Positions 37,935-61,329 of a stretch of 64,000 bases of DNA are shown here, one piece after another; the first letter of the stretch is position 1, and each line of letters opens with the position of its first letter. The stretch comes from Candidatus Doudnabacteria bacterium. Its GTDB lineage: Bacteria; Patescibacteriota; Doudnabacteria; UBA920; O2-02-FULL-48-8. The notes under the pieces are model-generated. The model saw only the letters and a program-made list of their open reading frames with translations, was not told the origin of the DNA and did not search any database. Made by a program: the position numbers and the translations under genes. The DNA lies in the NCBI GenBank assembly GCA_016186915.1, contig JACPKU010000006.1, positions 80,921 through 144,920 of the forward strand. The letters run 5' to 3'.

Positions 37935-37962
37935 AGTGTCCAATTCGCGCGAATTGGACACT
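37935..37962. repeat. 28-bp perfect palindrome containing ATTCGCGCGAAT core
   Basis: agtgtccaATTCGCGCGAATtggacact; same 12-bp core recurs at 59669, 60012, 60783, 61206. Confidence 0.85.
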
Positions 37963-43740: not shown

Positions 43741-43744
43741 ATAT

Positions 43745-45418
43745 ATGGGACCAGTCAAAGACGACATAACTTTATTTGCCAAAACCAACTTCCGAAATAG
43801 AGATGTGCCTTTTGGCATCCTTAAAGACGACCGCAGAAGGCATATGTATATTGTCGGAAAAACCGGCATGGGCAAGACCACCATGATTGAGAACATGGTT
43901 ATTCAGGATATTCAGAATGGTCACGGGGTGGCTTTTGTGGATCCGCACGGCGATTCCGTGGAGAAAATTTTGCACTACATCCCTTCCAACCGCATTAATG
44001 ACGTGGTTTATTTCAACCCGGCGGATACGGATTACCCCATCGCCTTCAATCCGTTGGAAGCGGTGGATCCGAAATACAAGCATTTGGTGGCCGACGGACT
44101 GATGGGGGTGTTTACCAAGATTTGGGCCGGGGTTTGGAGTGCGAGAATGGAATACATCCTCAACAATACAATTCTGGCGCTATTGGATTCACCGGGCAAT
44201 ACCATGCTGGGGATTCCTAGAATGTATGTCAACAAGACCTATCGCAAGCGTATTGTGGACAATATCAAAGATCCCGTGGTCAAATCGTTCTGGGTGGATG
44301 AATTTGCTAATTATAATGATAAGTTTAGAAGCGAAGCAGTCTCGCCAATTCAGAACAAGGTCGGACAATTTGTGTCTTCGGCGATTATCCGCAACATCGT
44401 GGGACAAACCAAAAGCGCTATTGATTTGCGGGACATTATGGACAACAAGAAAATCTTTTTACTCAACCTTTCCAAAGGCAGAATCGGCGAGGACAGCTCG
44501 GCTTTGCTGGGGGCGATGATTATTACCAAACTGCAACTGGCGGCAATGAGCCGGGTGGATATACCTGAAGAGAGCCGGCAGGACTTTTATCTCTACGTGG
44601 ATGAATTCCAAAACTTCGCCACCCAATCGTTTGCCAATATCTTGTCTGAAGCCAGAAAGTATCGGTTGAATTTGATCGTGGCGCACCAATACATCGGTCA
44701 GCTGATTTCGGACAAAAGCACGGTTGTCCGCGACGCGATTTTCGGCAACGTCGGCACGATCATTACCTTTAGAGTCGGAGCGGAGGATGCCGAATTTTTG
44801 GAGAAGGAGTTTGAGCCGACTTACATGATGAATGATTTGGTCAACCTGACTAAATATAATATCTATCTCAAGTTGATGATCAACGGAGTGTCTTCCCATC
44901 CGTTTTCCGCCACCAGTATGCCGCCTCTGGGTGACCAGACCGACAGCGAAGAGAAAGTGATCACTGTTTCCCGCGAGCGCTATGCCAGCGACAAAAAAAC
45001 TGTGGAAGAGAAAATCAATAAGTGGATGGGCGCGGAGTTCCACTCGGAGGCCGCCAGGTCAGAAAGCGGCTCAATCGAGCAAGAAGAGACCAAAGAGACT
45101 TTGAGGTTTGAAGACAATCCCCAGGAACAAAAAGAACCAAGGCAGGAGCAGACGTTTGAGCCAAGAGGAGACAGAAGAAAGAAAAGAAAAAGAGACAGAA
45201 AACCGCACAGTGATCAGAACCAGGGCAAACCACAGGACAATCCCGTGTGGCAGACCGTGGAGAAAATATCGACAGAAAAAGTTCAGCAGGAAGTGGAAAA
45301 GGCTACTCAAGCTTTCTCCAGCTTGGGAGATTCTTTGGAAGAAAATCTTAAAAAGACCGAGCAACAAGACCAGCCAAACACAACAACCTTGAAACCCGGG
45401 GATAAGATTCAATTTTAG
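43745..45418 (+). CDS. TraD/TrwB/VirD4-like coupling-type P-loop ATPase with charged low-complexity tail
   Basis: RRHMYIVGKTGMGKTT Walker A, YLYVDEFQNF Walker B, AHQ motif; C-terminal QEQK/RRKKRKRDRK tail. Confidence 0.6.
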   Translation: MGPVKDDITLFAKTNFRNRDVPFGILKDDRRRHMYIVGKTGMGKTTMIENMVIQDIQNGHGVAFVDPHGDSVEKILHYIPSNRINDVVYFNPADTDYPIAFNPLEAVDPKYKHLVADGLMGVFTKIWAGVWSARMEYILNNTILALLDSPGNTMLGIPRMYVNKTYRKRIVDNIKDPVVKSFWVDEFANYNDKFRSEAVSPIQNKVGQFVSSAIIRNIVGQTKSAIDLRDIMDNKKIFLLNLSKGRIGEDSSALLGAMIITKLQLAAMSRVDIPEESRQDFYLYVDEFQNFATQSFANILSEARKYRLNLIVAHQYIGQLISDKSTVVRDAIFGNVGTIITFRVGAEDAEFLEKEFEPTYMMNDLVNLTKYNIYLKLMINGVSSHPFSATSMPPLGDQTDSEEKVITVSRERYASDKKTVEEKINKWMGAEFHSEAARSESGSIEQEETKETLRFEDNPQEQKEPRQEQTFEPRGDRRKKRKRDRKPHSDQNQGKPQDNPVWQTVEKISTEKVQQEVEKATQAFSSLGDSLEENLKKTEQQDQPNTTTLKPGDKIQF

Positions 45419-51664: not shown

Positions 51665-51738
51665 TGGGGAGTAGCCAAGCGGTAAGGCAACGGACTCTGA
51701 ATCCGTCATCGTAGGTTCGATCCCTACCTCCCCAGCCA
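51665..51738 (+). tRNA. tRNA-Gln (anticodon CUG)
   Basis: UGGGGAG acceptor / CUCCCCA, D-arm GCCAAGCGGUAAGGC, anticodon stem ACGGA/UCCGU loop CUCUGAA, T-arm GUAGGUUCGAUCCCUAC, encoded CCA; near-identical in architecture to E. coli tRNA-Gln. Confidence 0.85.
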
Positions 51739-51852
51739 AAAAAAAGATTTTCCGTTTTTAATCATAAAAAAATGGCTCATCTCATGGGGAGGTGAGCCAA
51801 TCCAGAATGGGCGGGAACCCGTACAACGCGATTGCAAACGCGTTGACCTCCT

Positions 51853-52116
51853 TCAGTGCGTTCTGGCCAGCTCGCGGACCTTCGCGGCCACACTTTCCGG
51901 CAGGATCACGTCCTCGTCGAGCTGAACCAGTTCGTCCCAGGTCAGGTCAAATTCTTCCTTCAGCGTGAGGCTGATGGTGACCATGTGGTCATAAGCCTCT
52001 TTCCAGCCGCTGGGGTCGAGGTATCTGTAGGTTCCGATTTCCGTCACCACCAATATCAGCGGCGCGGCTCGCTCCGCTGCGACCCTGAACGCATCGAGCA
52101 TCTCTCCATAGGTCAC
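51853..52116 (-). CDS. hypothetical protein (GC-rich island)
   Basis: RBS gaaggagg 4-7 nt before GTG; 87 aa acidic. Confidence 0.4.
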   Translation of the reverse strand: MTYGEMLDAFRVAAERAAPLILVVTEIGTYRYLDPSGWKEAYDHMVTISLTLKEEFDLTWDELVQLDEDVILPESVAAKVRELARTH

Positions 52117-52136
52117 GTCTTTCCTCCTTCTCTCGG

Positions 52137-52616
52137 TCAGCGGCGGGCGTAGGACGGTGCCTCTGGTTTTTCCTGCCGGCGTTGTTCACTCTGGTTCTCC
52201 AGCGGATCGCCATCAGTTTTGCCATACGCCGACCGTACCTCGTCGAATTGGTCTTGCAGTATCTGAGCTTGGCGAGAGTCTTGCGACAGATACCTGGCTC
52301 TCGGAGTTGACTCGGACCCGGCCGTGTAGTTGAAGTGATCCACTACAGGCTCTGGCGCCTCCACAATGGCGACTTCTTCGCACCACGTGTCATTGTCTAG
52401 ACAGAAGACGCTATACTTGTCGAGCACGTTGTCTTCGCCCAGATCCAAGTACACCCGAAGGATGTTGTTTTTCTCCACCATACGGAAGTCTGTGAACTCC
52501 ACGCCCAGCGGTCTGCCAGAGTGTTCGTCAGTGAGCAGCTCCCGCTTGATCCCTGGGGACGCACAGCCACTGACCAAAAGCGCCAGGCCGAGCAGGCAGT
52601 TGTATCTATTTTTCAT
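52137..52616 (-). CDS. lipoprotein (hypothetical)
   Basis: MKNRYNCLLGLALLVSGC lipobox; RBS aaggagg 8 nt before ATG 52616; track ORF extends further upstream without support. Confidence 0.55.
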   Translation of the reverse strand: MKNRYNCLLGLALLVSGCASPGIKRELLTDEHSGRPLGVEFTDFRMVEKNNILRVYLDLGEDNVLDKYSVFCLDNDTWCEEVAIVEAPEPVVDHFNYTAGSESTPRARYLSQDSRQAQILQDQFDEVRSAYGKTDGDPLENQSEQRRQEKPEAPSYARR

Positions 52617-52812
52617 TAGCCGATCCTCCTTGCGAATAAGTAAGTTTAACACGTCTCTTACCCGGACAGCAAAAGGATCAAAGTCGGACGACCGGACAAG
52701 CCGCGGCGGTCTCAAGCTCCGAACCCTCTTAAGGTCCGGAGTTTTTTTGACTATAAAATTTTTCCCTGATAAGCTGGTTTCATTATGCCACTGTCCTGAA
52801 GGAGGAAAGGCC

Positions 52813-53397
52813 ATGAAGTTCACAGCTGAAAGTCCAGCCGAGTACTTCCGAGGGCTGGTAGAAAGTGCGATCGAACAACAGCGGATTCCGGCTAGTCAGT
52901 CGGCCAGGTATTATCTGACCAACTTGCTTTGCGGCTATGTGAGTCCAAGTACGGCCGGGACCTTACTGCCGTTTGAGGATGAGCTGCTAGTGATCAGACT
53001 GTGTCGGGCTTTGTCCGCCGGCGGGAGGGTGCAGCGCACGGAGCTGCGCCTGCTTGGCGACGTATCGTTGTTCGCGGCAGGATACTTTTCGGACAGTTTC
53101 CGCCGCAAACTGGTGGATGTGGATTATTACATAACGCTCGGCGGCTGCGCCTACACCGCACTCAGCCAGGCTGGACGGCGGGCGACGAATGGGTTGTTCG
53201 CTGAGCTGGCAGACAAGTTCGTCTCGTTCGCTGACGTTTTAGCAGACGTCAGCGAACAAAGCGGACTGACCTCCAACCGTGATTTACTGCGTCTCTACGA
53301 ACGGTGGCTGAAAACCAGAAGCTTACGGGATGCAAGGAAGCTTGCACAGCGGGGGATTACTCCAAATCTCACGTTGCGCAGTCTGCGAGTGCAGTAA
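52813..53397 (+). CDS. hypothetical protein (GC-rich island)
   Basis: RBS aggagg before ATG 52813; followed by repeated terminator hairpin. Confidence 0.5.
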   Translation: MKFTAESPAEYFRGLVESAIEQQRIPASQSARYYLTNLLCGYVSPSTAGTLLPFEDELLVIRLCRALSAGGRVQRTELRLLGDVSLFAAGYFSDSFRRKLVDVDYYITLGGCAYTALSQAGRRATNGLFAELADKFVSFADVLADVSEQSGLTSNRDLLRLYERWLKTRSLRDARKLAQRGITPNLTLRSLRVQ

Positions 53398-53412
53398 GCG
53401 GAAGACCTCTCA

Positions 53413-53450
53413 CCCTTGCTTGGCTCACCCCAAGCAAGGGCTTTTTTTTT
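53413..53450 (+). terminator. rho-independent terminator (repeated element copy 1)
   Basis: cccttgcttggctcaccccaagcaaggg + ttttttttt; identical hairpin at 53885..53912. Confidence 0.8.
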
Positions 53451-53555
53451 GCTGAGATTGATATCAACGGCGCTTCAACTGGCGGCAGCTGTTATTGACC
53501 GCTCTTGATAACGGTTGTATTATTTGGATATCCAATCTTCCAGCAGGAGGAAACC

Positions 53556-53855
53556 ATGAGTAGAATTGCCGTGCTCGAACGGGAAGAAGTCGTCGCGAGA
53601 GAGGTGCGCACGCCTGTTCAAGATCCGCCGCGTCCCGCAGCACCTCCACTGTATCGGCCTGATGGGCCGTCCGAGCCTGGGGATCTGCCGCTCAACGATC
53701 CCGCTTGGCAGCGCCTCGATGCCATGCGCGAAGAAGCGGGGCGACGAGGAATCAGCCAGGAGGAGCTGGCCTTGATGGACCACGGGTTCTGCCCCAAGCA
53801 GATCGACAAGCAGATCGGCAACCTGCGCCTCTGGCTCCGCAACCACCCGGCCTGA
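53556..53855 (+). CDS. hypothetical Pro-rich protein
   Basis: RBS aggagg 5 nt before ATG 53556; followed by second copy of the terminator hairpin. Confidence 0.45.
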   Translation: MSRIAVLEREEVVAREVRTPVQDPPRPAAPPLYRPDGPSEPGDLPLNDPAWQRLDAMREEAGRRGISQEELALMDHGFCPKQIDKQIGNLRLWLRNHPA

Positions 53856-53884
53856 CGCGCGCGTCGGCGCCGTCATCCCGTCCG

Positions 53885-53920
53885 CCCTTGCTTGGCTCAC
53901 CCCAAGCAAGGGTGTTTTAT
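53885..53920 (+). terminator. terminator (repeated element copy 2)
   Basis: Same 28-nt hairpin followed by gttttatt. Confidence 0.7.
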
Positions 53921-54018
53921 TGATTTTTTTAGCATTCCGTGGCATTATTTAGTTAAGCAATTAATAGTATTATGAAAATCCGCCGAAGCTCGAAGAGCCA
54001 AGTCACAAGCTCAATTTT

Positions 54019-54711
54019 ATGGGAGAAAACAAAAAAAAACCGCATCCAGCCGAAGGTCATAGAGGAAGATTAAGAGAAAGGTTTATACAAAGTGGGTTAG
54101 ATGCTTTTCTTGATTATGAAATTATTGAGCTGCTTTTGACTCTAGGCACTCCCCGAAAAGATTGTAAACAAATGGCAAAAGAGTTAATAAAAAAGTTTGG
54201 AGGTCTTAGAGAAGTGCTTGATGCATCACAACAAGAACTTTCTAAAACCGAAGGCATTGGCCTTATGAATTCTTTCGGATTAAAGCTTTTTCAATCAATG
54301 GCTGAGAGATATGAGCGTGAGAAAATTGTTCAGAAAATTGTTCTCGAGACGCCTCAAAAAGTTGCTAAATATTTACAAGAGAAAATCGGGAGAGAAGAAA
54401 AAGAGCATTTCATTACATTGTGTCTTGATACGAAAAATAATCTTATCAAAATAATCGAAATTTCGATTGGCACATTAAATGAAAGTCTGGTTCATCCAAG
54501 AGAAATCTTTAAAGAAGCTGTGGTAAATCACGCCGCTCAAGTTATAGTTTCCCATAACCATCCTTCAGGCGATATCCAGCCCTCGAGTCAGGATTTATTA
54601 GTCACAAAGCGGTTAGTAGAAGTAGGTAAAATTTTAGGAATTGAACTTTTGGATCATATTATAGTAAGTCGGAGTAACTTTTTGAGTTTTAGAGAGCAGA
54701 ATCTAATTTAA
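54019..54711 (+). CDS. radC: RadC-like JAB/MPN domain protein
   Basis: HhH N-domain; JAMM motif HNHPSG...S.QD. Confidence 0.8.
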   Translation: MGENKKKPHPAEGHRGRLRERFIQSGLDAFLDYEIIELLLTLGTPRKDCKQMAKELIKKFGGLREVLDASQQELSKTEGIGLMNSFGLKLFQSMAERYEREKIVQKIVLETPQKVAKYLQEKIGREEKEHFITLCLDTKNNLIKIIEISIGTLNESLVHPREIFKEAVVNHAAQVIVSHNHPSGDIQPSSQDLLVTKRLVEVGKILGIELLDHIIVSRSNFLSFREQNLI

Positions 54712-54716
54712 TTTTT

Positions 54717-55070
54717 ATGCCTAAATCCGAAATAAAGAAATTGACAAAAAAGATAGTTGCATTCCGCGATGCTCGAAACTGGAAACAATTCCATAATCCT
54801 AAAGATATGGTCTTGTCCCTGGTGCTGGAAGCCGCGGAAGTAGCCGAGCATTTTCAATGGAAAAACGCAAAAGAGATGCAAGAATATATTAAAGAACATA
54901 GGAACGATATTGGAGAAGAGCTGGCTGATGCGTTTTATTGGGTACTCTTAATCTCGAATGATCTAAATATAGATTTAGAGCAGGCGTTTAACAAAAAGAT
55001 GAAGCAGAACAAAAAAAAATATCCTGTAAGCAAAGCAAAAGGTAGACATGACAAGTATACGAAGTTATAA
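54717..55070 (+). CDS. MazG-like nucleoside triphosphate pyrophosphohydrolase
   Basis: EAAEVAEHFQW...ELADAFYWVLLISNDLNIDLEQA MazG-type EExxE/D motifs; 117 aa. Confidence 0.7.
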   Translation: MPKSEIKKLTKKIVAFRDARNWKQFHNPKDMVLSLVLEAAEVAEHFQWKNAKEMQEYIKEHRNDIGEELADAFYWVLLISNDLNIDLEQAFNKKMKQNKKKYPVSKAKGRHDKYTKL

Positions 55071-55072
55071 CC

Positions 55073-56929
55073 ATGAGACTATACGAAGGCACTGTTCAAG
55101 ATTTTAATTATAATGTTTCTCACAATCAGATTGCAGATAAGGTCGCTGAAGCCTACGCCACTTATTATAAAAAAAGACCTGCTGAATCTGAGTACCGTTC
55201 TTGGCAACAATCGTTGAGTCTTTTTAATTATGCATTGATAAATAGTGGTTTGACTTCAAACTGGATTATTATAGAGTACGAATTGCCCTATTCAACCAGA
55301 AGAATTGATGTCTTACTTTTTGGCAAAGGTCATGAAAATAAGGATAATATTGTTCTTATTGAACTGAAACAGTGGTCGAACGAACACGTTCACGATAGTA
55401 CTGTTGAGGGTAATATTGTTGTAGATTATGGAATTTTTAAACGTGAGGTGGCCCATCCCTCCTTACAAGTCCAAGGATACCATTTTGATTTAATAGATTT
55501 CTTTAAAATATTTGAAGAAAAAAAATCGCCTCAATTGAATTCGTGTGTATACTGCCATAACTATTCGAAAAGTAACGGAGAAAAAGTCCTTTTTTATCCT
55601 AAATTTGAGAAGCTTATAGAGAAGTATAAAGTTTTCAGCAAAGAAGATGCCGCGGACTTAGGTGAATATTTAAAATACAGATTAAGCCAAGGAGAGGGAC
55701 TTGAAGTTTTTAACCGATTTATTCACAGTCAAATAAGACCTACTAAGAAGTTGCTTGATCACACAAGCGAAATGATAAATAAGCAACAGATTTTCACACT
55801 GATTGATGACCAAATCGCTGCTTACAATGGAATAATGCACAAGGCCAAACAGTTAGTTAAGCTGAAAGTGAAATCAGTAATCATTGTGAAGGGCGGACCT
55901 GGCACCGGCAAATCTGTAATTGCTTTGGAGGTGATGGGAGAATTATTGAGACGAGGGTACGTAGTATTTCATGCTACAGGCTCGTCAGCATTTACAAACA
56001 CCTTACGTAAGGTAGTTGGTAGCAGAGCGAATAAATTATTCAAATTTTTCTTTAATTTTACGCAGGAAAAAGAAAATTCGATTGATGTAATTGTGTGTGA
56101 TGAAGCGCATAGATTGCGCGCACATAGTAATGATTATGGTGTACCTTTTAAATTTAGATCTAAAAATCCTCAAATAGAGGATATAATAAAGCCCGCCAAA
56201 CTTTCGGTTTTTTTCCTTGATGAATTCCAAGTCGTAAGGCCAAAGGAAATTGGAAGTGTGGATTTAATCAGAGGAGCAGCAAAAATTTTAAGTGTTAATG
56301 ATTCAAACATTCTTGAGTATGAGTTAAAAACCCAATTTCGTTGCTCCGGTTCTGATGCTTATTTACAGTGGTTAGATAAGATTTTTGGTATACGCGATAC
56401 AGAGATAACTCAATTCGATAAGAAAATGGAATTTAAAATTTTTGATTCTCCAACTTTGCTTAAAACTGCCATTGATGCAAAAAACCTTGAAAAACCTAAC
56501 TCAGCTAGGATAACAGCTGGTTTCTGCTGGCCATGGAGTGAACCAAGGCCGGACGGTAGTTTGGTCAACGATGTCAAAATCGGTAATTTTGAAATGCCAT
56601 GGGAAAATAAAAAGGAGTTTTGGAAATGGGCGACAGATACAAGTGGTCAAGAACAAGTTGGTACAGTTTATACTGCTCAGGGATTTGAATTCGAATACAT
56701 CGGGGTAATTATTGGAAACGATTTAGTTTATGATCGTGTGACAAAAAAATGGAAAGCAATTCCTGAAAACTCTTACGATAAAGCGGTTGTAAGAAATAAT
56801 CAGGAATTAACGCAACATTTAAAACATGTTTACCGCGTTTTGTTGTCCAGAGCTCATAAAGGAGTATATGTTTATTTTATGGATAAAAACACCGAAGAGT
56901 ATTTTAAGATAAGTTTAGAAAATCGATGA
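55073..56929 (+). CDS. PD-(D/E)xK nuclease fused to DUF2075 (Schlafen group-3-like) SF1 helicase/ATPase
   Basis: N-terminal RRIDVLLFGKG...IVLIELKQW (D...ELK nuclease motif); Walker A GGPGTGKS, Walker B VIVCDEAHRL, motif VI-like TVYTAQGFEFEYIGVIIGND characteristic of DUF2075. Confidence 0.65.
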   Translation: MRLYEGTVQDFNYNVSHNQIADKVAEAYATYYKKRPAESEYRSWQQSLSLFNYALINSGLTSNWIIIEYELPYSTRRIDVLLFGKGHENKDNIVLIELKQWSNEHVHDSTVEGNIVVDYGIFKREVAHPSLQVQGYHFDLIDFFKIFEEKKSPQLNSCVYCHNYSKSNGEKVLFYPKFEKLIEKYKVFSKEDAADLGEYLKYRLSQGEGLEVFNRFIHSQIRPTKKLLDHTSEMINKQQIFTLIDDQIAAYNGIMHKAKQLVKLKVKSVIIVKGGPGTGKSVIALEVMGELLRRGYVVFHATGSSAFTNTLRKVVGSRANKLFKFFFNFTQEKENSIDVIVCDEAHRLRAHSNDYGVPFKFRSKNPQIEDIIKPAKLSVFFLDEFQVVRPKEIGSVDLIRGAAKILSVNDSNILEYELKTQFRCSGSDAYLQWLDKIFGIRDTEITQFDKKMEFKIFDSPTLLKTAIDAKNLEKPNSARITAGFCWPWSEPRPDGSLVNDVKIGNFEMPWENKKEFWKWATDTSGQEQVGTVYTAQGFEFEYIGVIIGNDLVYDRVTKKWKAIPENSYDKAVVRNNQELTQHLKHVYRVLLSRAHKGVYVYFMDKNTEEYFKISLENR

Positions 56930-56985
56930 AAAAGTTTATAAACTTTATGGTTTGATTGAAAAAGAAATTAATATAATCAAGGCTA

Positions 56986-57489
56986 ATGACTAAATTGAAC
57001 ATAAGAATAAAAATCCGAAAATACGGTTTGAAAGTTATTGGCTTTCTGTTTCTTATATATATTAACAGCTTTTTAGATAAGATATTTGAGCCCTTAAATG
57101 AGTATTTAATCAATACATCAAAAACATTTCCAGTATTAAAGATATTAGATTTTTTTGTATCAATTCTAGCACTGGAAATTCCAATTTATTCCTTGTTAAT
57201 AGCCCTGTCAGTTATTTGGATCGTATTTAAAATTTACTTGTTCGTAAGAGTTCGTCGGAATAAATTACAAATTCTCACGGCAATCTATGGTAAAAATAGT
57301 AGAATTGTAGAAATTACTAATCAATTAAATAATCTTGTAGAAAATGATAAATTGAAAGTTGTATTATCGAATGCCTTGGCGGGTGATCCACTCTACGGGA
57401 AACCAAAGATGGGGAAGGTAAAATATCAATATAATGGAAAAATTTCAGAGAAGGAATATATTGAAGGCGAAACTATAGAACTTCCATGA
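56986..57489 (+). CDS. hypothetical membrane protein
   Basis: 3 hydrophobic segments; AT-rich island. Confidence 0.4.
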   Translation: MTKLNIRIKIRKYGLKVIGFLFLIYINSFLDKIFEPLNEYLINTSKTFPVLKILDFFVSILALEIPIYSLLIALSVIWIVFKIYLFVRVRRNKLQILTAIYGKNSRIVEITNQLNNLVENDKLKVVLSNALAGDPLYGKPKMGKVKYQYNGKISEKEYIEGETIELP

Positions 57490-57537
57490 GGGATTCATTG
57501 ATTTGAATTTTTTTATTTATTAAGCTAATCTTTGTTT

Positions 57538-57756
57538 ATGGCAAGAGTAACTTTCGACACAATTTTCGCAAGTCATACGGAAGATAATTCATATGAACCT
57601 CGTCAAAGAATAAGGGTGGGTTCTGTTGAATTTGGGCCAGGAGTTAGATTTACCAGAGGAGTTGCCTTTGGTGGTGTAGAATTTGACCAGGTTATTGGTC
57701 ACGAACTTGAAGTCGAGACCCAAGGAGACTTATTAGTCATTAAAGGCGTTTATTGA
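57538..57756 (+). CDS. small hypothetical protein
   Basis: ATG 57538 (MARVTFD...) inside track ORF. Confidence 0.3.
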   Translation: MARVTFDTIFASHTEDNSYEPRQRIRVGSVEFGPGVRFTRGVAFGGVEFDQVIGHELEVETQGDLLVIKGVY

Positions 57757-57757
57757 A

Positions 57758-58054
57758 ATGGCGAAGGAAGATTTAAAAATAAAATTTAATGACCCAGAAG
57801 ATTTCATTAAAAGATTTGATAGGCTTTTTTATTTCGTAGTTGGAGCAATGTTAATCGGTTTTCTTTCTCTGTTGTTTATGGTGGCCGGGTTGGTTGTTGA
57901 CTCTTGGCGTTTTAATTCCACCGTCTATAAAGAGTCAAAATTATTAAAACTTCAAGAAGATATAATAAATCAAAATTTTGAACAGCAGAAACTTAATTCT
58001 AATACCCTTGAATCTATAAAACAGCAGTTACTAGAGATGAAAACCAAACAGTAA
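57758..58054 (+). CDS. small membrane protein
   Basis: One TM helix then coiled-coil-like tail; followed by terminator ccgcagcttggtcgctgcgg + T-run (58093..58125). Confidence 0.4.
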   Translation: MAKEDLKIKFNDPEDFIKRFDRLFYFVVGAMLIGFLSLLFMVAGLVVDSWRFNSTVYKESKLLKLQEDIINQNFEQQKLNSNTLESIKQQLLEMKTKQ

Positions 58055-58148
58055 TAGCACTGTAGTAATTTAATTTCCCCAACTATTAAAAACCGCAGCT
58101 TGGTCGCTGCGGCTTTTAATTTTTTATTTTCATTTCTAATAAGGTTAA

Positions 58149-58373
58149 TTAACCTTTCGGAGGATACGGGTCATGCTGGTAGGTATTGCGTTCACGGATT
58201 TTACCGTCTCGGCCGTGAATGAATACCTCACCGCCGCCTTGATTGATTGCAGTTTGCCGCGCGACTCTGAAGGCGTCTTGTTGATCATCCATAACGATTG
58301 TGTCTCGATCAGCGTTTGCGCGACGAACCGCCCACTGGTTGTGGCCGCGGTATACGACGTGTTGGTTAGCCAT
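58149..58373 (-). CDS. DUF2188 domain protein
   Basis: ...GGEVFIHGRDGKIRERNTYQHDPYPPKG matches DUF2188 C-terminal signature (HGRDG..R....G.DP.PPKG). Confidence 0.65.
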   Translation of the reverse strand: MANQHVVYRGHNQWAVRRANADRDTIVMDDQQDAFRVARQTAINQGGGEVFIHGRDGKIRERNTYQHDPYPPKG

Positions 58374-58503
58374 AACTATTCCTTTCTTCCGCTAATTATT
58401 CGACCTTTATTTTGGTTTCGGATTTTTAGGCCTCCACCATACATTAATTTTATGACTCGAAAGTAAAATAGTCAATAACACTGGTATTGACTATTAAAAC
58501 TGA

Positions 58504-59115
58504 ATGCATATAATAACTTCAAAGGCGGCTTTTGCCGCTATTCAATTTTTTATGAATAAACATTTAGAACCGATTTTTAGAAAAGTATTACCAGCTTTAG
58601 ATGAAGCTGATATTGATTACTGGGTTTACGGTGGTGTGGCCATTGCCGGTATAGAAGGGGATTTTTATCGGTATAATGAAGATGTCGATATTTTTATTTT
58701 TGATAATGATTATCAGCGAACCTTGGAAGTAATTGAAAATCTGAATTATAATTGGAGTAAAGTCAAACACGCAAAACTCCTTAATGGAATACGTCCAAAA
58801 GAGGAATACTTTGTTAAGGATCAAAAGGAAGATATATTTTCGGTAATCCCAGTCTATAAAATTAATGATAATAAAATTAAGTTTGTTTATTCCAAAGATT
58901 TAGTTCCAGTCAACCCACTAACTCGAGAAAAGAGAATCATTGGAAGTTATACATTTTTTACCCCTGGCAGTGAGTTTATCAAAGAACAGTTTATCCATAA
59001 AATAAAAGGGAAAATTTTCAAACAGGCGGAATTATCGGAAAATGAGGAAAAGGATGCCGAGGTTTTGTTCGGTCCCGATTATTTAAAAACAATAACTGCT
59101 TTAGTTCATTCCTGA
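58504..59115 (+). CDS. nucleotidyltransferase-fold protein (hypothetical)
   Basis: YGGVAIAGIEGDFYRYNEDVDIFIF resembles minimal NTase GG...DhD motif. Confidence 0.4.
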   Translation: MHIITSKAAFAAIQFFMNKHLEPIFRKVLPALDEADIDYWVYGGVAIAGIEGDFYRYNEDVDIFIFDNDYQRTLEVIENLNYNWSKVKHAKLLNGIRPKEEYFVKDQKEDIFSVIPVYKINDNKIKFVYSKDLVPVNPLTREKRIIGSYTFFTPGSEFIKEQFIHKIKGKIFKQAELSENEEKDAEVLFGPDYLKTITALVHS

Positions 59116-59344
59116 CCCTTCTCTAATACACGAAGTATACGAAGGTCACCTTTGCAATTTGGATTTTAAGCTGCTGTTGACCGTCTCGACTTCGCCCGAG
59201 GCCTTCGGCGAGACATAGTTTTTGTTTTAGGGAATTAAAATGTTAGAATTAAAATAGGTGTATATGGGTGAATATATTTTTTGTAAATTATGAGAGAGAC
59301 GTCATCAGGCCATAAGATTTGGGGGAAGAGGGAAAGTCAAAACC

Positions 59345-59650
59345 TTGAACAGCAAACCGTATAAATTCAAAGCCAAAGTGTGGTTGTATCCAGGAGAGGC
59401 TGGGTGGCACTTTGTGAATGTGCCTAAGAATCTATCAAAACAGATTGATAAAAGTTTTGCACATTTGAAAAGGGGATTTGGCTCGTTGCCGGTAGTGGCG
59501 CAGATTGGCAAAACCTTCTGGAAAACCTCGATCTTTCCAGACACCAAATCCGGCACTTATTTATTGGCTTTGAAAGTCGCGGTTCGCAAAGCCGAACATA
59601 TTAAGCTTCATGACCGTCTTGCCATCGTCCTCCAAATCCGAGAACTCTAG
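59345..59650 (+). CDS. DUF1905 domain protein
   Basis: FKAKVWLYPGEAGWHFVNVP...GSLPVVAQIGKTFWKTSIFP...GTYLLALKVAVRK matches DUF1905 pattern. Confidence 0.65.
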   Translation: MNSKPYKFKAKVWLYPGEAGWHFVNVPKNLSKQIDKSFAHLKRGFGSLPVVAQIGKTFWKTSIFPDTKSGTYLLALKVAVRKAEHIKLHDRLAIVLQIREL

Positions 59651-59726
59651 TATCTTATTTAAGGACTCATTCGCGCGAATGAGCGAATGATGGTATATTG
59701 GCTATACACAATTTTTTGCAGCTTCT

Positions 59727-60002
59727 GTGAATTATTCTTCTATGCCCACTTTAGAAAGACAACTTAAGGCGTTAGCGAATAAAAGAAGATTAGCGATAAT
59801 CAAATTTTTGGATAATCGCCGCGAAGCGTCGGTGGGTACGATTGCGGGCTGGATTAGATTGTCTTTCAAGTCTACATCCAAGCATTTATCAATTTTATCC
59901 GCGGTTGACATCGTGGATAAGGAGCAGCGCAGCAAAACCGTGTTTTATCATCTGGTTTCGCCGAAATCCAATTTAGTCAAACAAATTTTATCTCTGCTTT
60001 AA
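59727..60002 (+). CDS. ArsR/SmtB-family transcriptional regulator
   Basis: LKALANKRRLAIIKFL...VGTIAG...SKHLSIL...VFY winged-HTH pattern. Confidence 0.55.
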   Translation: MNYSSMPTLERQLKALANKRRLAIIKFLDNRREASVGTIAGWIRLSFKSTSKHLSILSAVDIVDKEQRSKTVFYHLVSPKSNLVKQILSLL

Positions 60003-60034
60003 CTAGGCATCATTCGCGCGAATAGGAGAATAGT

Positions 60035-60796
60035 ATGTGGTATTCTGGGAACGATTTTACAAATGAGGAGCTAGAAGTTCTAAAGGAGCTTGAGCGGGAG
60101 TTATTTAAATATAATCCCGGTTTTCGAGCCATGTGGCACGATGATTTTGAAGAGTACTTTAAGGGGACGTTGAATGAGGAGTACTGGGAGCGAAGAGAAA
60201 AACAACGCAATAAGGAATTAGAAGAAATAGTAAGAAAGCGGATGGTCGAAGATTTTGAATACGTGAAGTTTCGACATGAATTAGCGGAAATAGAGGAAAT
60301 GCTGTCGCGAGATGATCTTTTTTCCATCAAAGCAAGGGCTGGATTTGAGGATGAGTGGGAGAAAGCTCAAGAAAAAAAGCGGGAAGATAAGCTTTATGTG
60401 ACCGCAAAAGATTGGAGTTTTGAACTTTCGCATTTAGCTTATGAACTATATGAAACATATAAATTACTGCCCTTGTTTCGGATTGGAAAGAACGCCAGTT
60501 ATGTGGCGGCAAAAATAGCCTATGCTTCAGCGGATTTCAGAGAACGGATTGAAACATTGGAGGACCTGGCACGGAACACTTCATGGATAGGATATACGTT
60601 GGCGCTGACTTTTTTAAATAGAAGCTTAGAGTCTTTGGAAAAACTTGAAAGAGAAAATGAGCTGGCAGTTAGAATTGATTTGGATCGTTTTCAAACAACA
60701 GGCTCAAAGATGAAATTAGAATTGATGGATCGTTTGGAAAAATTTCACCAATCGGCGCTTAAGGCCAGATTTACTGGTTCTAATTCGCGCGAATGA
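60035..60796 (+). CDS. hypothetical protein (acidic/helical)
   Basis: Preceded by ATTCGCGCGAAT palindrome + aggag RBS. Confidence 0.45.
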   Translation: MWYSGNDFTNEELEVLKELERELFKYNPGFRAMWHDDFEEYFKGTLNEEYWERREKQRNKELEEIVRKRMVEDFEYVKFRHELAEIEEMLSRDDLFSIKARAGFEDEWEKAQEKKREDKLYVTAKDWSFELSHLAYELYETYKLLPLFRIGKNASYVAAKIAYASADFRERIETLEDLARNTSWIGYTLALTFLNRSLESLEKLERENELAVRIDLDRFQTTGSKMKLELMDRLEKFHQSALKARFTGSNSRE

Positions 60797-60807
60797 GGGA
60801 ATAGTAT

Positions 60808-61206
60808 ATGAATAAATTTGATTGCGAGAAATTTGAAGAAAAATTGAGAGAAATGGGCATCGAATATGACCCTAAGGCCTTTAAAGCAGGCCGGCTGACT
60901 AAATTATTGTTGAAACTTGACCCAATCCGAGGAACGAAAAGATTCAATAAGAGGTCGGGTGTTAGAAACGATGTCTTTGATAAAGCCCATGAACTTTTTT
61001 CTAAAATTGAGCGCATTGATATTTTCCCTCTTGGGGGTGGCTTACGAGGGTTCGTTTTAGTACTTGATCAAAACACCGCACTCTTTTTTTATCAAGACGG
61101 TGATTATTTTAAATATGACGGCTTTGAAATGGGTAAGTATGCGAAAGGCAAGGTCACGATCTTCGACGACTTACCAGACAATCTTCCAAGTCCTTATGAT
61201 CTCTAA
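60808..61206 (+). CDS. hypothetical protein
   Basis: Preceded by ATTCGCGCGAAT palindrome + gaggg RBS; followed by fourth palindrome copy. Confidence 0.45.
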   Translation: MNKFDCEKFEEKLREMGIEYDPKAFKAGRLTKLLLKLDPIRGTKRFNKRSGVRNDVFDKAHELFSKIERIDIFPLGGGLRGFVLVLDQNTALFFYQDGDYFKYDGFEMGKYAKGKVTIFDDLPDNLPSPYDL

Positions 61207-61329
61207 TTCGCGTGAATGAACGAATGAGTGGATGACCAAATTGCTTTGACGAGGACGTCAAAGGTTCCGCAGGACGGCGGTTTTTGTTTGTGGTAATATT
61301 AAATTAGAATTGAATAATTTTTTTTGCTT

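What the first reader, a model, noticed from the sequence alone, without database searches (positions are those of the whole stretch)
54019..59200. AT-rich (~35% GC) island: RadC, MazG-like NTP pyrophosphohydrolase, PD-(D/E)xK + DUF2075 nuclease-helicase, plus small accessory genes; candidate defence module
Composition drops sharply at ~54000 relative to the GC-rich islet on its left and tRNA-Gln 2.3 kb upstream. Three tightly packed genes (54019..56929, 3-6 nt spacers) encode a JAB/RadC protein, a MazG-type NTP pyrophosphohydrolase, and a 618-aa protein joining a restriction-endonuclease-like D...ELK motif to a DUF2075/Schlafen-group-3-type SF1 ATPase. Architecturally that resembles nuclease-helicase immunity proteins. 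Downstream are membrane proteins, DUF2188, an NTase-fold protein and DUF1905. MazG-like NTP pyrophosphohydrolases also occur in phage genomes. The specific trio is not a system I can name.
Basis: partly seen in the sequence, partly recalled or inferred. Interest (0 to 1): 0.65.

Follow-up and report, generated by a model that had tools for sequence, protein, structure and literature searches.

The report
MazG plus nuclease-helicase defence candidate beside radC
An AT-rich accessory island in a Candidatus Doudnabacteria genome carries a two-gene pair, a DCTPP1-like MazG nucleotide pyrophosphatase and an Nhi-type nuclease-helicase, that recurs across bacteria and archaea as a likely but still unverified anti-phage module, while the radC gene in front of it marks a variable defence locus in this bacterial group and is not a regular part of the system.

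Summary
GC falls from 0.56 to 0.33-0.37 at 54,000. RadC, a MazG-like pyrophosphatase and a 618-aa nuclease plus DUF2075 helicase are packed 5 and 2 nt apart.

The interpretation needs correcting. The conserved unit is the pair, not the trio. MazG lies directly beside the helicase in about 50 of 80 genomes from many bacterial and archaeal phyla. RadC lies there in 4 of 80.

RadC is a Patescibacteria-type gene. In all 10 other contexts examined it sits directly next to defence genes: type I or III R-M, Mrr with a reverse transcriptase, DpnI, or MazG with the helicase.

The helicase protein has invariant D79/E97/K99 in a confident PD-(D/E)xK fold and an intact SF1B motor. This is the Nhi architecture, but a different sequence family from Nhi and from Nhi-like/PDC-S41. 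MazG is a DCTPP1 homologue with intact metal ligands.

The island is missing from the closest relative; synteny breaks at tRNA-Gln.

The pair is not new as a prediction. Millman et al. 2022 (Table S2) tested it as the "Pyrophosphatase" candidate. SG192 gave no protection and SG193 could not be cloned. Function therefore remains unproven.

The parts
51665..51738 (+). tRNA-Gln(CTG). Synteny with the nearest Doudnabacteria relative ends here, so this is the left edge of the variable region.
   Evidence: ARAGORN. blastn gives 91% identity to the tRNA-Gln of L177, after which collinearity stops.
51750..53921 (.). GC-rich (0.53-0.58) islet of ORFans. It is a separate accessory segment and ends in twin copies of one terminator hairpin (53413-53449 and 53885-53921).
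   Evidence: Composition. No Pfam hits. No tblastn match in L177/L178. Repeat D3/I2. Terminator scan.
54019..54711 (+). Full-length RadC (HhH-type N-terminal domain plus JAB domain) with the JAMM-like motif HNHPSGDIQPSSQD at residues 179-192. It is the first gene of the AT-rich island and, in Patescibacteria, the leader or anchor gene of a variable defence locus.
   Evidence: Pfam and NCBIfam. Motif. Patescibacteria-only named relatives. Ten RadC contexts. GC matches the cargo.
54717..55070 (+). MazG-like all-alpha NTP pyrophosphatase, a homologue of DCTPP1/RS21-C6. Metal ligands E38, E41, E68 and D71 are intact.
   Evidence: PF12643 1.9e-14. PDB 6sqw dCTP pyrophosphatase 1, 3.2e-18. R20, W22, H26, E38, E41, E68, D71 and K94 are invariant in 53 partner MazGs. 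43% identity to the Millman SG193 pyrophosphatase.
55073..55792 (+). N-terminal NERD-like PD-(D/E)xK nuclease domain of the 618-aa protein (residues 1-240). Catalytic D79, E97 and K99 lie in the RIDV...ELKQW motif.
   Evidence: D79, E97 and K99 are invariant in the alignments of 49 and 46 sequences; E68, W101, P129, Q132 and Y136 are also invariant in both. NERD PF08378 matches 10 of 49 relatives. AF2 domain model pLDDT 91.2. Foldseek top hits are Card1, NucS, Can2, BsoBI, Cap4 and MspJI.
55871..56929 (+). DUF2075 / Schlafen-group-3-type SF1B helicase domain (residues 267-604, then the C-terminal tail). Walker A GGPGTGKS is at 274-281 and Walker B CDEAH at 342-346.
   Evidence: PF09848 3.1e-80. 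Motifs are invariant. Foldseek hits RecD2, SLFN11, Dda and Upf1 at E about 1e-10.
56986..58054 (+). They probably lie in the same transcript but are not conserved with the module elsewhere.
   Evidence: ORFs. Gaps of 56, 42 and 1 nt. No tblastn hits in 80 loci. Hydrophobic segment. No terminator-like site with more than 3 G-C pairs on the + strand until 58093.
58093..58112 (+). Intrinsic-terminator-like hairpin that probably ends the RadC-to-orf98 transcription unit.
   Evidence: Terminator scan: 7-bp stem, 6 G-C pairs, T tail.
58149..58373 (-). DUF2188 protein. It matches the PADLOC single-gene defence candidate PDC-S16.
   Evidence: PF09954 2.2e-21. PDC-S16 8.9e-28. phrog_3220.
58504..61206 (+). 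Rest of the low-GC island: an Lnu/ANT-like NTase-fold protein (58504-59115), DUF1905 (59345-59650), an ArsR/SmtB regulator (59727-60002) and two ORFans (60035-60796, 60808-61206). A palindrome ATTCGCG(C/T)GAAT lies in four intergenic gaps.
   Evidence: Pfam and NCBIfam. GC 0.33-0.44. Palindrome: 5 sites in the window against 0.01 expected.

Best explanation
The functional core is a two-gene, horizontally mobile module. One gene encodes a small DCTPP1-like MazG nucleoside-triphosphate pyrophosphatase. The other encodes a single polypeptide joining a NERD-type PD-(D/E)xK nuclease to a DUF2075 SF1B helicase, the architecture of the anti-phage protein Nhi. It most likely defends against phage or other foreign DNA.

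Proposed mechanism:
- Inferred from Nhi and SF1B relatives: the helicase loads on foreign or replicating DNA and translocates with ATP while the N-terminal nuclease cuts it.
- Inferred from homology to DCTPP1, which prefers 5-modified dCTP (my own knowledge), and from the recurrent neighbourhood of modification-dependent HNH, DUF3427, DUF3883 and DUF3578 restriction proteins: MazG hydrolyses non-canonical dNTPs. This would either starve phages that build modified DNA, or stop modified nucleotides released from degraded phage DNA from being salvaged into the host chromosome.

Shown here: both enzymes keep their catalytic residues; the pair is co-located across bacteria and archaea; it sits in defence islands; the island is accessory in this genome.

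RadC is not a general component. In Patescibacteria it is the conserved first gene of a locus whose downstream cargo is swapped among different defence systems. In this genome the cargo is MazG plus the helicase.
For: Pair linkage:
- MazG is found in 53 of 80 genome loci. About 45 lie directly upstream (median gap 3 nt, several 4-nt overlaps) and about 5 directly downstream. Hosts span Omnitrophota, Acidobacteriota, Bacillota, Bacteroidota, Pseudomonadota, Actinomycetota, CPR, Woesearchaeota, Methanosarcinales, Thermoplasmata and others.
- In the reverse direction, 34 of 74 assessable MazG loci from metagenomes have a DUF2075 protein adjacent.

Catalytic competence: D79/E97/K99, Walker A and Walker B are invariant. 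MazG E38/E41/E68/D71 are invariant.

Folds: the nuclease domain model has pLDDT 91 and its best matches are PD-(D/E)xK nucleases. The motor matches RecD2, SLFN11 and Dda. MazG matches DCTPP1 at 3e-18.

Defence context: the nearest neighbours of relatives include HNH_2 endonucleases (13 of 80 loci), type IV mREase, type I REase, BrxP, BrxH, DrmD, PDC-S41, SocA and PLD. The Priestia plasmid has DUF3578>MazG>DUF2075 inside an R-M island. The B. cereus plasmid has MazG>HNH>DUF2075.

Prior independent prediction: Millman 2022 selected pyrophosphatase+DUF2075 on defence-island enrichment. The window proteins match those candidates at 31% (E 5e-60) and 43% (E 1e-30).

Accessory status: synteny with a relative whose PPase is 85% identical ends at tRNA-Gln, and the island is absent there. 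The helicase's closest relatives (about 70% identity) are Omnitrophota, not CPR.

RadC as anchor: ten RadC contexts all carry defence genes next to it.
Against: - The only published test found so far was negative. SG192 (Bacillus firmus) gave no protection against 26 phages, and SG193 could not be cloned.
- 27 of 80 helicase loci have no MazG, so MazG is dispensable for at least some lineages.
- About half of close MazG relatives have other neighbours, some of them housekeeping genes.
- MazG and helicase divergence are only weakly correlated (r = 0.12, Mantel p = 0.006). The partners are therefore reshuffled rather than co-evolving as a tight complex.
- MazG has no PADLOC match. The helicase hits Nhi, AbiO and PDC-S41 only weakly and partially.
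- The substrate of MazG is pure inference.
- No phage of Doudnabacteria is available to test.
Confidence: 0.55

Rival explanations
1. RadC, MazG and the nuclease-helicase form a genuine three-component system. RadC (a JAB-fold nucleic-acid-processing or peptidase domain) would act with the other two.
For: The trio recurs in CPR-like contigs with tight spacing: L086 and L089 (RadC>MazG>Hel), L106 (same order), L057 and L124 (MazG>Hel>RadC), and L009 (MazG>RadC>Hel, with RadC between the other two). RadC shares the low GC of the cargo. The JAMM-like motif is intact.
Against: RadC is present in only 4 of 80 helicase loci and 4 of 80 MazG loci. The same RadC lineage is equally tightly linked to type I and type III R-M, MTase+Mrr+RT and DpnI cargos. 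That is not expected of a specific partner. RadC's named relatives follow Patescibacteria taxonomy, whereas the helicase's do not.
Confidence: 0.12
2. This is a housekeeping DNA-repair and nucleotide-pool sanitation operon. MazG would remove damaged dNTPs, a Dna2-like nuclease-helicase would process damaged or stalled DNA, and RadC would be a repair factor. It would have no role in defence.
For: Dna2 has the same nuclease plus SF1B order and appears among the fold hits. DCTPP1 and MazG enzymes are classical house-cleaning enzymes (established knowledge). 65 of the 120 closest homologues carry a C-terminal LexA/UmuD-type S24 peptidase with the Ser and Lys motifs conserved. This points to coupling with RecA and DNA damage. 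MutT is a neighbour on the Priestia plasmid.
Against: The distribution is patchy. About 70% identity between Omnitrophota and CPR indicates transfer. The gene occurs on plasmids and is absent from the closest relative at this locus. Neighbours are dominated by restriction and defence genes. The region has foreign base composition.
Confidence: 0.13
3. This is a toxin/antidote or abortive-infection pair. The nuclease-helicase would be toxic to the host and MazG would restrain or license it, for example by controlling a nucleotide signal or the local NTP supply. Infection would then trigger self-DNA damage and dormancy.
For: SG193 could not be cloned. One Nhi homologue was toxic in the Nhi study. 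Sorek-lab pipelines treat PF09848 as an Abi family. MazG belongs to the mazEFG toxin-antitoxin operon in E. coli (my own knowledge). The tight, often overlapping gene arrangement fits such a pair.
Against: 27 of 80 loci carry the helicase with no MazG, which is hard to reconcile with an obligatory antidote. MazG also pairs with unrelated HNH nucleases and with housekeeping genes. Co-phylogeny is weak.
Confidence: 0.1
4. The island is cargo that serves a mobile element rather than the host. RadC and MazG would be anti-restriction or counter-defence 'moron' genes, as seen in phages and conjugative elements, and the helicase would serve the element's replication.
For: RadC/ArdB modules are described at the ends of defence-carrying MGEs. 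[quoted passage not shown] MazG-like pyrophosphatases are PHROG families. A few phage records encode full-length relatives of the helicase.
Against: The island has no integrase, relaxase, replication or structural gene, and no flanking direct repeats. A scan of IMG/VR found no relative. RadC here is the full-length chromosomal type with Patescibacteria phylogeny.
Confidence: 0.07

Closest known systems
Millman et al. 2022 candidate system 'Pyrophosphatase' (SG192 Bacillus firmus LK28; SG193 B. thuringiensis Lr3/2), Table S2 of bioRxiv 10.1101/2022.05.11.491447
   Same: The gene content is the same: a roughly 100-aa MazG-type pyrophosphatase next to a roughly 620-640-aa DUF2075 protein with the same N-terminal D...ELKQW nuclease domain. 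The window helicase aligns from residue 1 with SG192 (31% identity, E 5e-60). The window MazG is 43% identical to the SG193 pyrophosphatase.
   Different: That candidate was never verified: SG192 is marked 'x' and SG193 'Cloning failed'. It has no name and, as far as I could test, no model in PADLOC v2, where MazG gave no hit. The window copy is a divergent CPR instance preceded by RadC.
Nhi (SERP2475) nuclease-helicase immunity, Staphylococcus epidermidis (Bari et al.; bioRxiv 10.1101/776245)
   Same: A single polypeptide of about 600 aa with an N-terminal PD-(D/E)xK nuclease and a DUF2075 SF1B helicase. In Nhi both activities are needed for defence and phage DNA accumulation is blocked.
   Different: The PADLOC Nhi model matches only residues 243-468, the first RecA-like half, at 2.5e-13. 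The nuclease domains are not detectably alike in sequence. Nhi works alone, whereas this family usually has a MazG partner. Nhi homologues were reported in three bacterial phyla; this family spans many bacterial and archaeal phyla.
Nhi-like (SG141, Bacillus cereus FSL H8-0482; verified in Millman 2022) = PADLOC PDC-S41 family
   Same: The same architecture, with collinear distant similarity from the nuclease core to Walker B (22% identity, E 3e-6). PDC-S41-type paralogues lie next to this family in 3 of 80 loci.
   Different: It is a different sequence family. True PDC-S41 members score 1e-288 against that model, while the window protein scores 1.1e-17 over two short stretches. SG141 is a single-gene system.
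DCTPP1 / RS21-C6 (mammalian dCTP pyrophosphatase 1) and the all-alpha MazG NTP-PPase superfamily
   Same: The window MazG aligns over almost its full length with DCTPP1 (PDB 6sqw, 3.2e-18). The EExxE...ExxD metal ligands and the W/F/H residues around them are kept.
   Different: The window protein is half the size of the deposited mammalian chain (117 vs 170 aa). Its substrate is unknown. It is encoded as a partner of nucleases in defence islands rather than as a stand-alone housekeeping gene.
Eukaryotic Schlafen group III proteins (SLFN11, SLFN5, SLFN14)
   Same: The C-terminal helicase domain belongs to the same Pfam family (PF09848), and SLFN11 and SLFN14 are among the best structural matches.
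   Different: There is no Schlafen core (AlbA_2) RNase domain. The N-terminal domain is a PD-(D/E)xK DNase fold instead.

Membership tests
Nhi (Bari et al.) | N-terminal PD-(D/E)xK nuclease domain with conserved catalytic residues | tested here: met
   D79, E97 and K99 are invariant in the 49- and 46-sequence alignments. The domain model has pLDDT 91 with alpha-beta-beta-beta topology, and its best matches are PD-(D/E)xK nucleases.
Nhi (Bari et al.) | DUF2075 / SF1B helicase core with Walker A and B | tested here: met
   PF09848 3.1e-80. GGPGTGKS and CDEAH are invariant. Foldseek hits RecD2, Dda and Upf1.
Nhi (Bari et al.) | Full-length sequence membership (match to the Nhi profile) | tested here: not met
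   PADLOC Nhi PDLC02372 matches only residues 243-468 to profile positions 183-371 of 470, at E 2.5e-13. There is no match to the nuclease part.
Nhi (Bari et al.) | A single gene is sufficient for anti-phage protection | not testable with these tools
   This needs expression and phage challenge. The gene is paired with MazG here and in about 50 of 80 relatives.
Nhi-like / PDC-S41 (Millman SG141) | Sequence membership in the family of the verified protein | tested here: not met
   BLASTP against SG141 gives 22% identity over 288 aa, E 3e-6. The PDC-S41 model gives 1.1e-17 over short stretches, against 1e-288 for real members. The L042 paralogue matches SG141 at 2e-40.
Millman 2022 'Pyrophosphatase' candidate (SG192/SG193) | DUF2075 protein homologous over its nuclease and helicase parts | tested here: met
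   31% identity over 412 aa from residue 1, E 5e-60 against SG192. 28% identity, E 1e-26 against SG193. Only the first 399 aa of each are printed in the table.
Millman 2022 'Pyrophosphatase' candidate (SG192/SG193) | Adjacent MazG-type pyrophosphatase | tested here: met
   Window MazG against the SG193 pyrophosphatase: 43% identity, E 1e-30. It lies 2 nt upstream of the helicase.
Millman 2022 'Pyrophosphatase' candidate (SG192/SG193) | Demonstrated protection against phage | not testable with these tools
   The paper records 'x' for SG192 and 'Cloning failed' for SG193. The authors note that unverified candidates may still be defensive.
MazG / DCTPP1 all-alpha NTP pyrophosphatase | Family profile above threshold, with EExxE...ExxD metal-binding residues | tested here: met
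   PF12643 at 54.1 bits (cut-off 27). DCTPP1 at 3.2e-18. E38, E41, E68 and D71 are invariant in 53 sequences.
MazG / DCTPP1 all-alpha NTP pyrophosphatase | Preference for dCTP or 5-modified dCTP | not testable with these tools
   This needs enzyme assays. It is inferred only from homology and from neighbouring modification-dependent nucleases.
RadC (full-length, UPF0758) | HhH-type N-terminal domain plus JAB domain with an HxHx7Sx2D motif, above curated cut-offs | tested here: met
   PF20582 5.3e-12 and PF04002 2.4e-46. NF000642 at 241 bits (cut-off 180). Motif at residues 179-192.
Schlafen group III | N-terminal Schlafen core (AlbA_2) domain in addition to the helicase | tested here: not met
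   There is no PF04326 hit, and the N-terminal domain has a PD-(D/E)xK fold.
tRNA-associated genomic island | Foreign composition, tRNA adjacency and absence from close relatives | tested here: met
   GC 0.33-0.41 against flanks of 0.50-0.58. tRNA-Gln lies at the synteny break, and the island is absent from L177/L178.
tRNA-associated genomic island | Integrase and flanking direct repeats (att sites) | tested here: not met
   No integrase or recombinase domain in any island ORF. No direct repeat of the tRNA 3' end in 51.5-62.5 kb.

The most novel reading that the evidence does not exclude
Two linked readings remain open.

(1) MazG plus the nuclease-helicase is a real two-enzyme immune module found across bacteria and archaea. 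It would pair destruction of foreign DNA by an Nhi-type nuclease-helicase with destruction of non-canonical, phage-made or phage-derived dNTPs by a DCTPP1-like enzyme. That would be a defence aimed at phages with modified genomes, and a prokaryotic counterpart of the animal Schlafen-helicase and dNTP-hydrolase restriction factors. It may have been missed in the one published test because the right phages were not in the panel.

(2) In Patescibacteria, radC is the conserved, co-transcribed leader of a phylum-wide swap-in defence locus. The anchor gene travels with its cargo, since RadC shares the cargo's low GC. This hints that RadC itself acts in processing incoming DNA.
Probability: 0.25. Interest if true: 0.75.

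Novelty: new variant of a known kind. Interest (0 to 1): 0.5.

Why it matters
Nuclease-helicase proteins of the Nhi type are an established single-gene defence. A version that usually carries its own nucleotide pyrophosphatase would add a second step, control of the nucleotide pool. No named defence system in PADLOC v2 or in the papers I could search combines such a step with a DNA-degrading effector.

The pair is common. In a one-genome-per-species database, 532 of the first 599 pattern-matched stretches encode a relative, in hosts from Bacillus and Streptomyces plasmids to DPANN archaea. It is present in cultured strains, so it can be tested directly.

The single negative test in the literature leaves the question open. 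The frequent neighbourhood of modification-dependent nucleases suggests which phages to try.

The finding that radC is directly followed by a different defence system in each Patescibacteria genome examined is a separate point. It gives a simple handle for mining immune genes in a phylum where almost nothing is known about phage defence. It also bears on the long-unclear function of RadC.

Tried and rejected
- PDB sequence searches with the whole 618-aa protein and with a 49-sequence profile of the N-terminal domain gave nothing useful. The fold had to come from a predicted model.
- The first full-length AF2 model was mediocre (pLDDT 67) and only identified the motor. A domain-only model with a more diverse alignment reached pLDDT 91.
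- Foldseek E-values for the nuclease domain are weak (0.01-0.4). They count only because the hits are consistently PD-(D/E)xK enzymes and the catalytic triad fits.
- Full-text searches for MazG with DUF2075, Nhi, Schlafen or 'anti-phage helicase' found no relevant paper. The prior art turned up only in a supplementary table.
- A scan of IMG/VR viral contigs found no relative, so I dropped a phage origin.
- I looked for att-like direct repeats, an integrase and PHROG hallmark genes and found none. I rejected 'integrated prophage or ICE'.
- I tested whether MazG and the helicase co-evolve. The correlation is significant but weak (r = 0.12), so I do not claim a tightly co-evolving complex.
- I considered that RadC might be an ordinary core gene merely next to a hotspot. 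Its GC matches the cargo in three higher-GC genomes, so that simple version is not fully satisfactory either. The question is left open.
- The small downstream genes (167, 74 and 98 aa) were checked as possible system components. They have no homologue in any related locus.

Full report

Yes.
- The three ORFs lie at 54019-54711, 54717-55070 and 55073-56929 on the + strand. The spacers are 5 and 2 nt.
- GC in 500-nt windows falls from 0.576 at 53500-53999 to 0.348 at 54000-54499 and stays at 0.27-0.41.
- The two 2-kb bins covering 54-58 kb (0.359 and 0.328) are the lowest of all 32 bins. The window averages 0.456.
- Low GC continues to about 61,250, beyond the stated end of 59,200.
- tRNA-Gln(CTG) is at 51665-51738.
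- The exact 618-aa protein is on record from a Candidatus Doudnabacteria MAG. Three independent assemblies from different sequencing runs carry the same arrangement. One 20-kb contig spans both borders, so the island is not a chimeric join.

**2. What the genes are**

*RadC.* It matches PF04002 (2.4e-46), UPF0758_N and the NCBIfam RadC equivalog (241 bits, cut-off 180). It has the HxHx7Sx2D motif at residues 179-192.

*The 117-aa protein.* It matches MazG-like PF12643 (1.9e-14). It aligns over nearly its whole length with mammalian dCTP pyrophosphatase 1, DCTPP1/RS21-C6 (PDB 6sqw, 3.2e-18). In 53 partner MazGs the residues R20, W22, H26, E38, E41, E68, D71 and K94 are invariant. These include the metal-binding EExxE...ExxD set.

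*The 618-aa protein, helicase part.* It matches the Schlafen-group-3/DUF2075 helicase family at 267-604 (3.1e-80). A full-length model matches RecD2, SLFN11, Dda and Upf1, so it is an SF1B motor.

*The 618-aa protein, N-terminal part.* The first 240 residues have no Pfam hit of their own. The evidence that they form a nuclease domain is:
- Ten of 49 relatives hit NERD (best 1.8e-6). Single relatives hit SduA_C, PDDEXK_9 and HSDR_N_2, all of the PD-(D/E)xK clan.
- A domain-only AF2 model reaches pLDDT 91.2 with the canonical helix plus three-strand core.
- Its best, though weak, Foldseek matches are Card1, NucS/EndoMS, Can2, BsoBI, Cap4, MspJI and SfsA.
- D79, E97 and K99 are invariant down to 29% identity.

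The domain occurs almost only at residues 1-250 of proteins of about 620 or about 795 aa. It was found in 1,345 representative clusters at E <= 1e-3.

**3. What is conserved with what**

Of these, 532 encode a relative of the 618-aa protein. I kept the best 80. They come from many bacterial phyla and from Woesearchaeota, Micrarchaeota, Methanosarcinales, Thermoplasmata, Nanoarchaeota and Thaumarchaeota.

| Neighbour of the helicase in 80 loci | Count |
|---|---|
| MazG-like gene anywhere nearby | 53 |
| MazG directly upstream (median gap 3 nt, several 4-nt overlaps) | about 45 |
| MazG directly downstream | about 5 |
| No MazG | 27 |
| RadC | 4 (three different orders) |
| Any of the island's other genes | 0 |

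All-against-all clustering of neighbouring ORFs found only one recurrent real neighbour, the MazG-like gene.

In the reverse direction I started from the MazG. Of 74 assessable metagenome loci, 34 have a DUF2075 protein adjacent. Some of these carry a different N-terminal domain. The remaining loci have HNH, Vsr or REase neighbours, or housekeeping genes.

Pairwise divergence of MazG and helicase is only weakly correlated (r = 0.12, Mantel p = 0.006). For example, the window MazG is closer to CPR MazGs whose helicases belong to a different subclade. The two genes are functionally linked but are re-assorted.

**4. RadC**

All best named relatives of the window RadC are Patescibacteria: Doudna-, Giovannoni-, Jorgensen-, Taga- and Parcubacteria, at 61-77% identity. 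By contrast, the helicase's closest relatives, at about 70% identity, are Omnitrophota.

I looked at ten other RadC contexts:

| Locus | Arrangement |
|---|---|
| L086 | RadC>MazG>Hel |
| L089 | RadC>MazG>Hel>DUF3800 |
| L084/L085 | RadC>N6/N4-MTase>?>Mrr>?>reverse transcriptase |
| L087 | RadC>SDH-protease...DpnI |
| L088, L175 | RadC>type III Res+Mod>LexA |
| L173 | RadC>?>HsdR>HsdM>?>Dam |
| L174 | RadC>MazG>376-aa unknown...SLFN_AlbA_2 |
| L176 | RadC>type III Mod+Res>?>Abi_C |
| L057 | MazG>Hel>RadC |

. Gaps are from -4 to 35 nt. In the three genomes whose core genes have GC above 0.5 (the window, L084 and L089), RadC has the low GC of the cargo, not of the core.

RadC is therefore best read as the conserved first gene of a variable defence locus in this phylum. 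The trio is a CPR-specific combination, also seen in L106, L124 and L009. I found no paper describing this arrangement. The literature I found places short RadC genes in MGE 'moron' modules and in polyvalent proteins.

**5. Is the island accessory?**

Yes.
- The window from 40.5 kb to the H+/Na+-pyrophosphatase gene is collinear with contigs of a Doudnabacteria relative whose pyrophosphatase is 85% identical.
- The tRNA-Gln, 91% identical in nucleotides, is the last collinear feature in the window. In the relative a glycosyltransferase gene lies between the pyrophosphatase and the tRNA.
- Beyond the tRNA, the relative has a glycosyltransferase and P-type ATPase cluster. It has no RadC, MazG or helicase.
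- A SIMPL gene lies on the far side in both genomes (45% amino-acid identity).
- The GC-rich islet at 51.75-54.0 kb is also absent from the relative, so two compositionally different segments lie side by side.
- No integrase, att repeats or phage hallmark genes are present.

**6. Defence context and prior art**

Nearest neighbours of the module in other genomes include:
- HNH_2 endonucleases of about 320 aa in 13 of 80 loci. Their HNH part resembles PDB entry 6yex, deposited as 'HNH endonuclease', which I recall to be the modification-dependent enzyme VcaM4I;
- type IV methyl-directed REases with DUF3427;
- type I REase, BrxP, BrxH, DrmD, SocA and PLD;
- a second DUF2075 protein of the PDC-S41 family.

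Cultured examples:
- a Priestia aryabhattai plasmid with DUF3578>MazG>DUF2075 between a restriction endonuclease, MutT and a type I R-M system;
- a B. cereus megaplasmid with MazG>HNH>DUF2075; 69 Bacillus plasmid records hold a helicase match, but only this one was opened;
- a Streptomyces plasmid with DUF3883>DUF2075.

Lutz et al. 2019 had already noted DUF2075 NTPases next to DUF3427-DUF3883 modification-dependent enzymes.

Most important is Table S2 of Millman et al. 2022. It lists a candidate named 'Pyrophosphatase', chosen for defence-island enrichment:
- SG192 (B. firmus): a 98-aa pyrophosphatase plus a 643-aa DUF2075 protein, marked 'x';
- SG193 (B. thuringiensis): marked 'Cloning failed'.

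The window helicase aligns from residue 1 with SG192 (31%, E 5e-60). The window MazG is 43% identical to the SG193 enzyme. The verified 'Nhi-like' protein SG141 is only distantly related to the window protein (22%, E 3e-6). It belongs with PDC-S41. PADLOC's Nhi and AbiO models touch only the first half of the motor.

**7. How it most likely works**

*Shown:*
- two intact enzymes;
- tight, widely conserved linkage;
- defence-island neighbourhood;
- accessory status.

*Inferred from Nhi:* the helicase translocates on foreign or replicating DNA with ATP and the N-terminal nuclease degrades it.

*Inferred from DCTPP1 homology and from the recurring modification-dependent nucleases nearby:* MazG hydrolyses non-canonical dNTPs. 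This could deny them to phages that build modified DNA. Alternatively it could prevent modified nucleotides freed by DNA degradation from entering host DNA, where they would make the host a target of its own modification-dependent nucleases.

The weak co-phylogeny fits a pathway-level partnership rather than a tight complex.

About half of the closest homologues (65 of 120) and 9 of 80 genome loci add a C-terminal LexA/UmuD-type S24 peptidase with the Ser and Lys motifs conserved. This suggests that some versions are controlled by RecA filaments. The window protein lacks this domain.

*Main caveat:* the single published test was negative. The rival explanations (a true RadC trio, housekeeping repair, a toxin/antidote pair, MGE cargo) are weighed in their own section.

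**8. Verdict**

The gene pair is a divergent CPR member of a widespread two-gene family that has been predicted before but never verified. Its effector has the Nhi architecture. The RadC link is a feature of Patescibacteria genome organisation, not of the system.

Interest is moderate. Nothing here is categorically new. Two testable points come out of it: the MazG partner and the phage types worth trying, and radC as the anchor of a defence locus in Patescibacteria.

Noticed in passing
window 54019-54711; loci L084-L089, L173-L176, L057: In Patescibacteria, full-length radC is directly followed (-4 to 35 nt) by a different defence system in each genome examined: type I R-M, type III R-M, MTase+Mrr+reverse transcriptase, protease...DpnI, or MazG+DUF2075. 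In three higher-GC genomes RadC shares the low GC of that cargo. This looks like a phylum-wide radC-anchored defence locus. I found no description of it in the literature searched.
   Followed up: partly
homologues P0002-P0120; loci L004, L005, L010, L025, L034, L038, L046, L047, L050: 65 of the 120 closest homologues and 9 of 80 genome loci carry a C-terminal LexA/UmuD-type S24 peptidase domain of about 150 aa on the nuclease-helicase. The G-x-SMEP and T-x-K-x-Y motifs are conserved. This suggests RecA- or DNA-damage-controlled self-cleavage. The window protein lacks the domain.
   Followed up: partly
L025, L026, L028, L034, L037, L042, L051-L053, L055, L060, L076 (and possibly L056); L095, L098; plasmid loci L091, L179, L180: An HNH_2 endonuclease of about 320 aa lies next to the MazG-helicase module in 13 of 80 genomes. 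Its HNH part matches PDB 6yex, which I recall to be the modification-dependent enzyme VcaM4I. MazG also forms gap-0 pairs with HNH nucleases without any helicase. DUF3578, DUF3883 and DUF3427 proteins also recur nearby. Together these point to modified DNA as the common theme.
   Followed up: partly
window 59669-59680, 60012-60023, 60783-60794, 61206-61217 and 37943-37954: The palindrome ATTCGCG(C/T)GAAT, embedded in a longer TCATTCGCGCGAATGA, occurs at five sites, all intergenic, against 0.01 expected by chance. Four sites lie in successive gaps around the ArsR-family gene and the two ORFans at the right end of the island. It may be an operator of that regulator or a small intergenic repeat element.
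   Followed up: partly
window 53413-53449 and 53885-53921: Two 92%-identical copies of a G+C-rich terminator hairpin (CCCTTGCTTGGCTCACCCCAAGCAAGGG plus a T run) lie 472 nt apart and bracket the 116-aa ORF 53505-53855. The second copy lies about 100 nt upstream of the RadC start.
   Followed up: no
window 51750-54000: A GC-rich (0.53-0.58) islet of ORFs with no Pfam match lies between tRNA-Gln and the AT-rich island. It is also absent from the closest relative. Two accessory segments of opposite composition therefore sit side by side.
   Followed up: partly
window 58149-58373 (-): The 74-aa DUF2188 protein matches the PADLOC single-gene defence candidate PDC-S16 (8.9e-28) and a PHROG of unknown function (1.3e-23). 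Its GC (0.53) is unlike that of the surrounding island.
   Followed up: no
L176:787-5824: Upstream of RadC in one Patescibacteria contig lies a run of nucleotide-pool genes: three MazG-family genes, a NUDIX hydrolase, a GIY-YIG protein and an Rv2179c-like exonuclease. Downstream of the same RadC is a type III R-M system and an Abi_C protein.
   Followed up: no
L174:6001-9587: RadC>MazG is followed here by an unannotated 376-aa protein instead of the DUF2075 helicase. Two genes further on is a protein with the Schlafen AlbA_2 domain. This is another MazG partnership worth examining.
   Followed up: no
L090 (Hymenobacter canadensis plasmid NZ_CP114769) 3904-7890; L042:6001-9913: Two different DUF2075 nuclease-helicase paralogues occur in tandem in three loci, one of the window's family and one of the PDC-S41/Nhi-like family. 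On the Hymenobacter plasmid the tandem pair lies next to a DNA methyltransferase.
   Followed up: no
window about 42578-45087 (collinear with L177:14812-17329): The conserved core region left of the island encodes a TrwB/TraG-type coupling-protein homologue next to a DUF8128 protein. The same pair is present in the Doudnabacteria relative.
   Followed up: no
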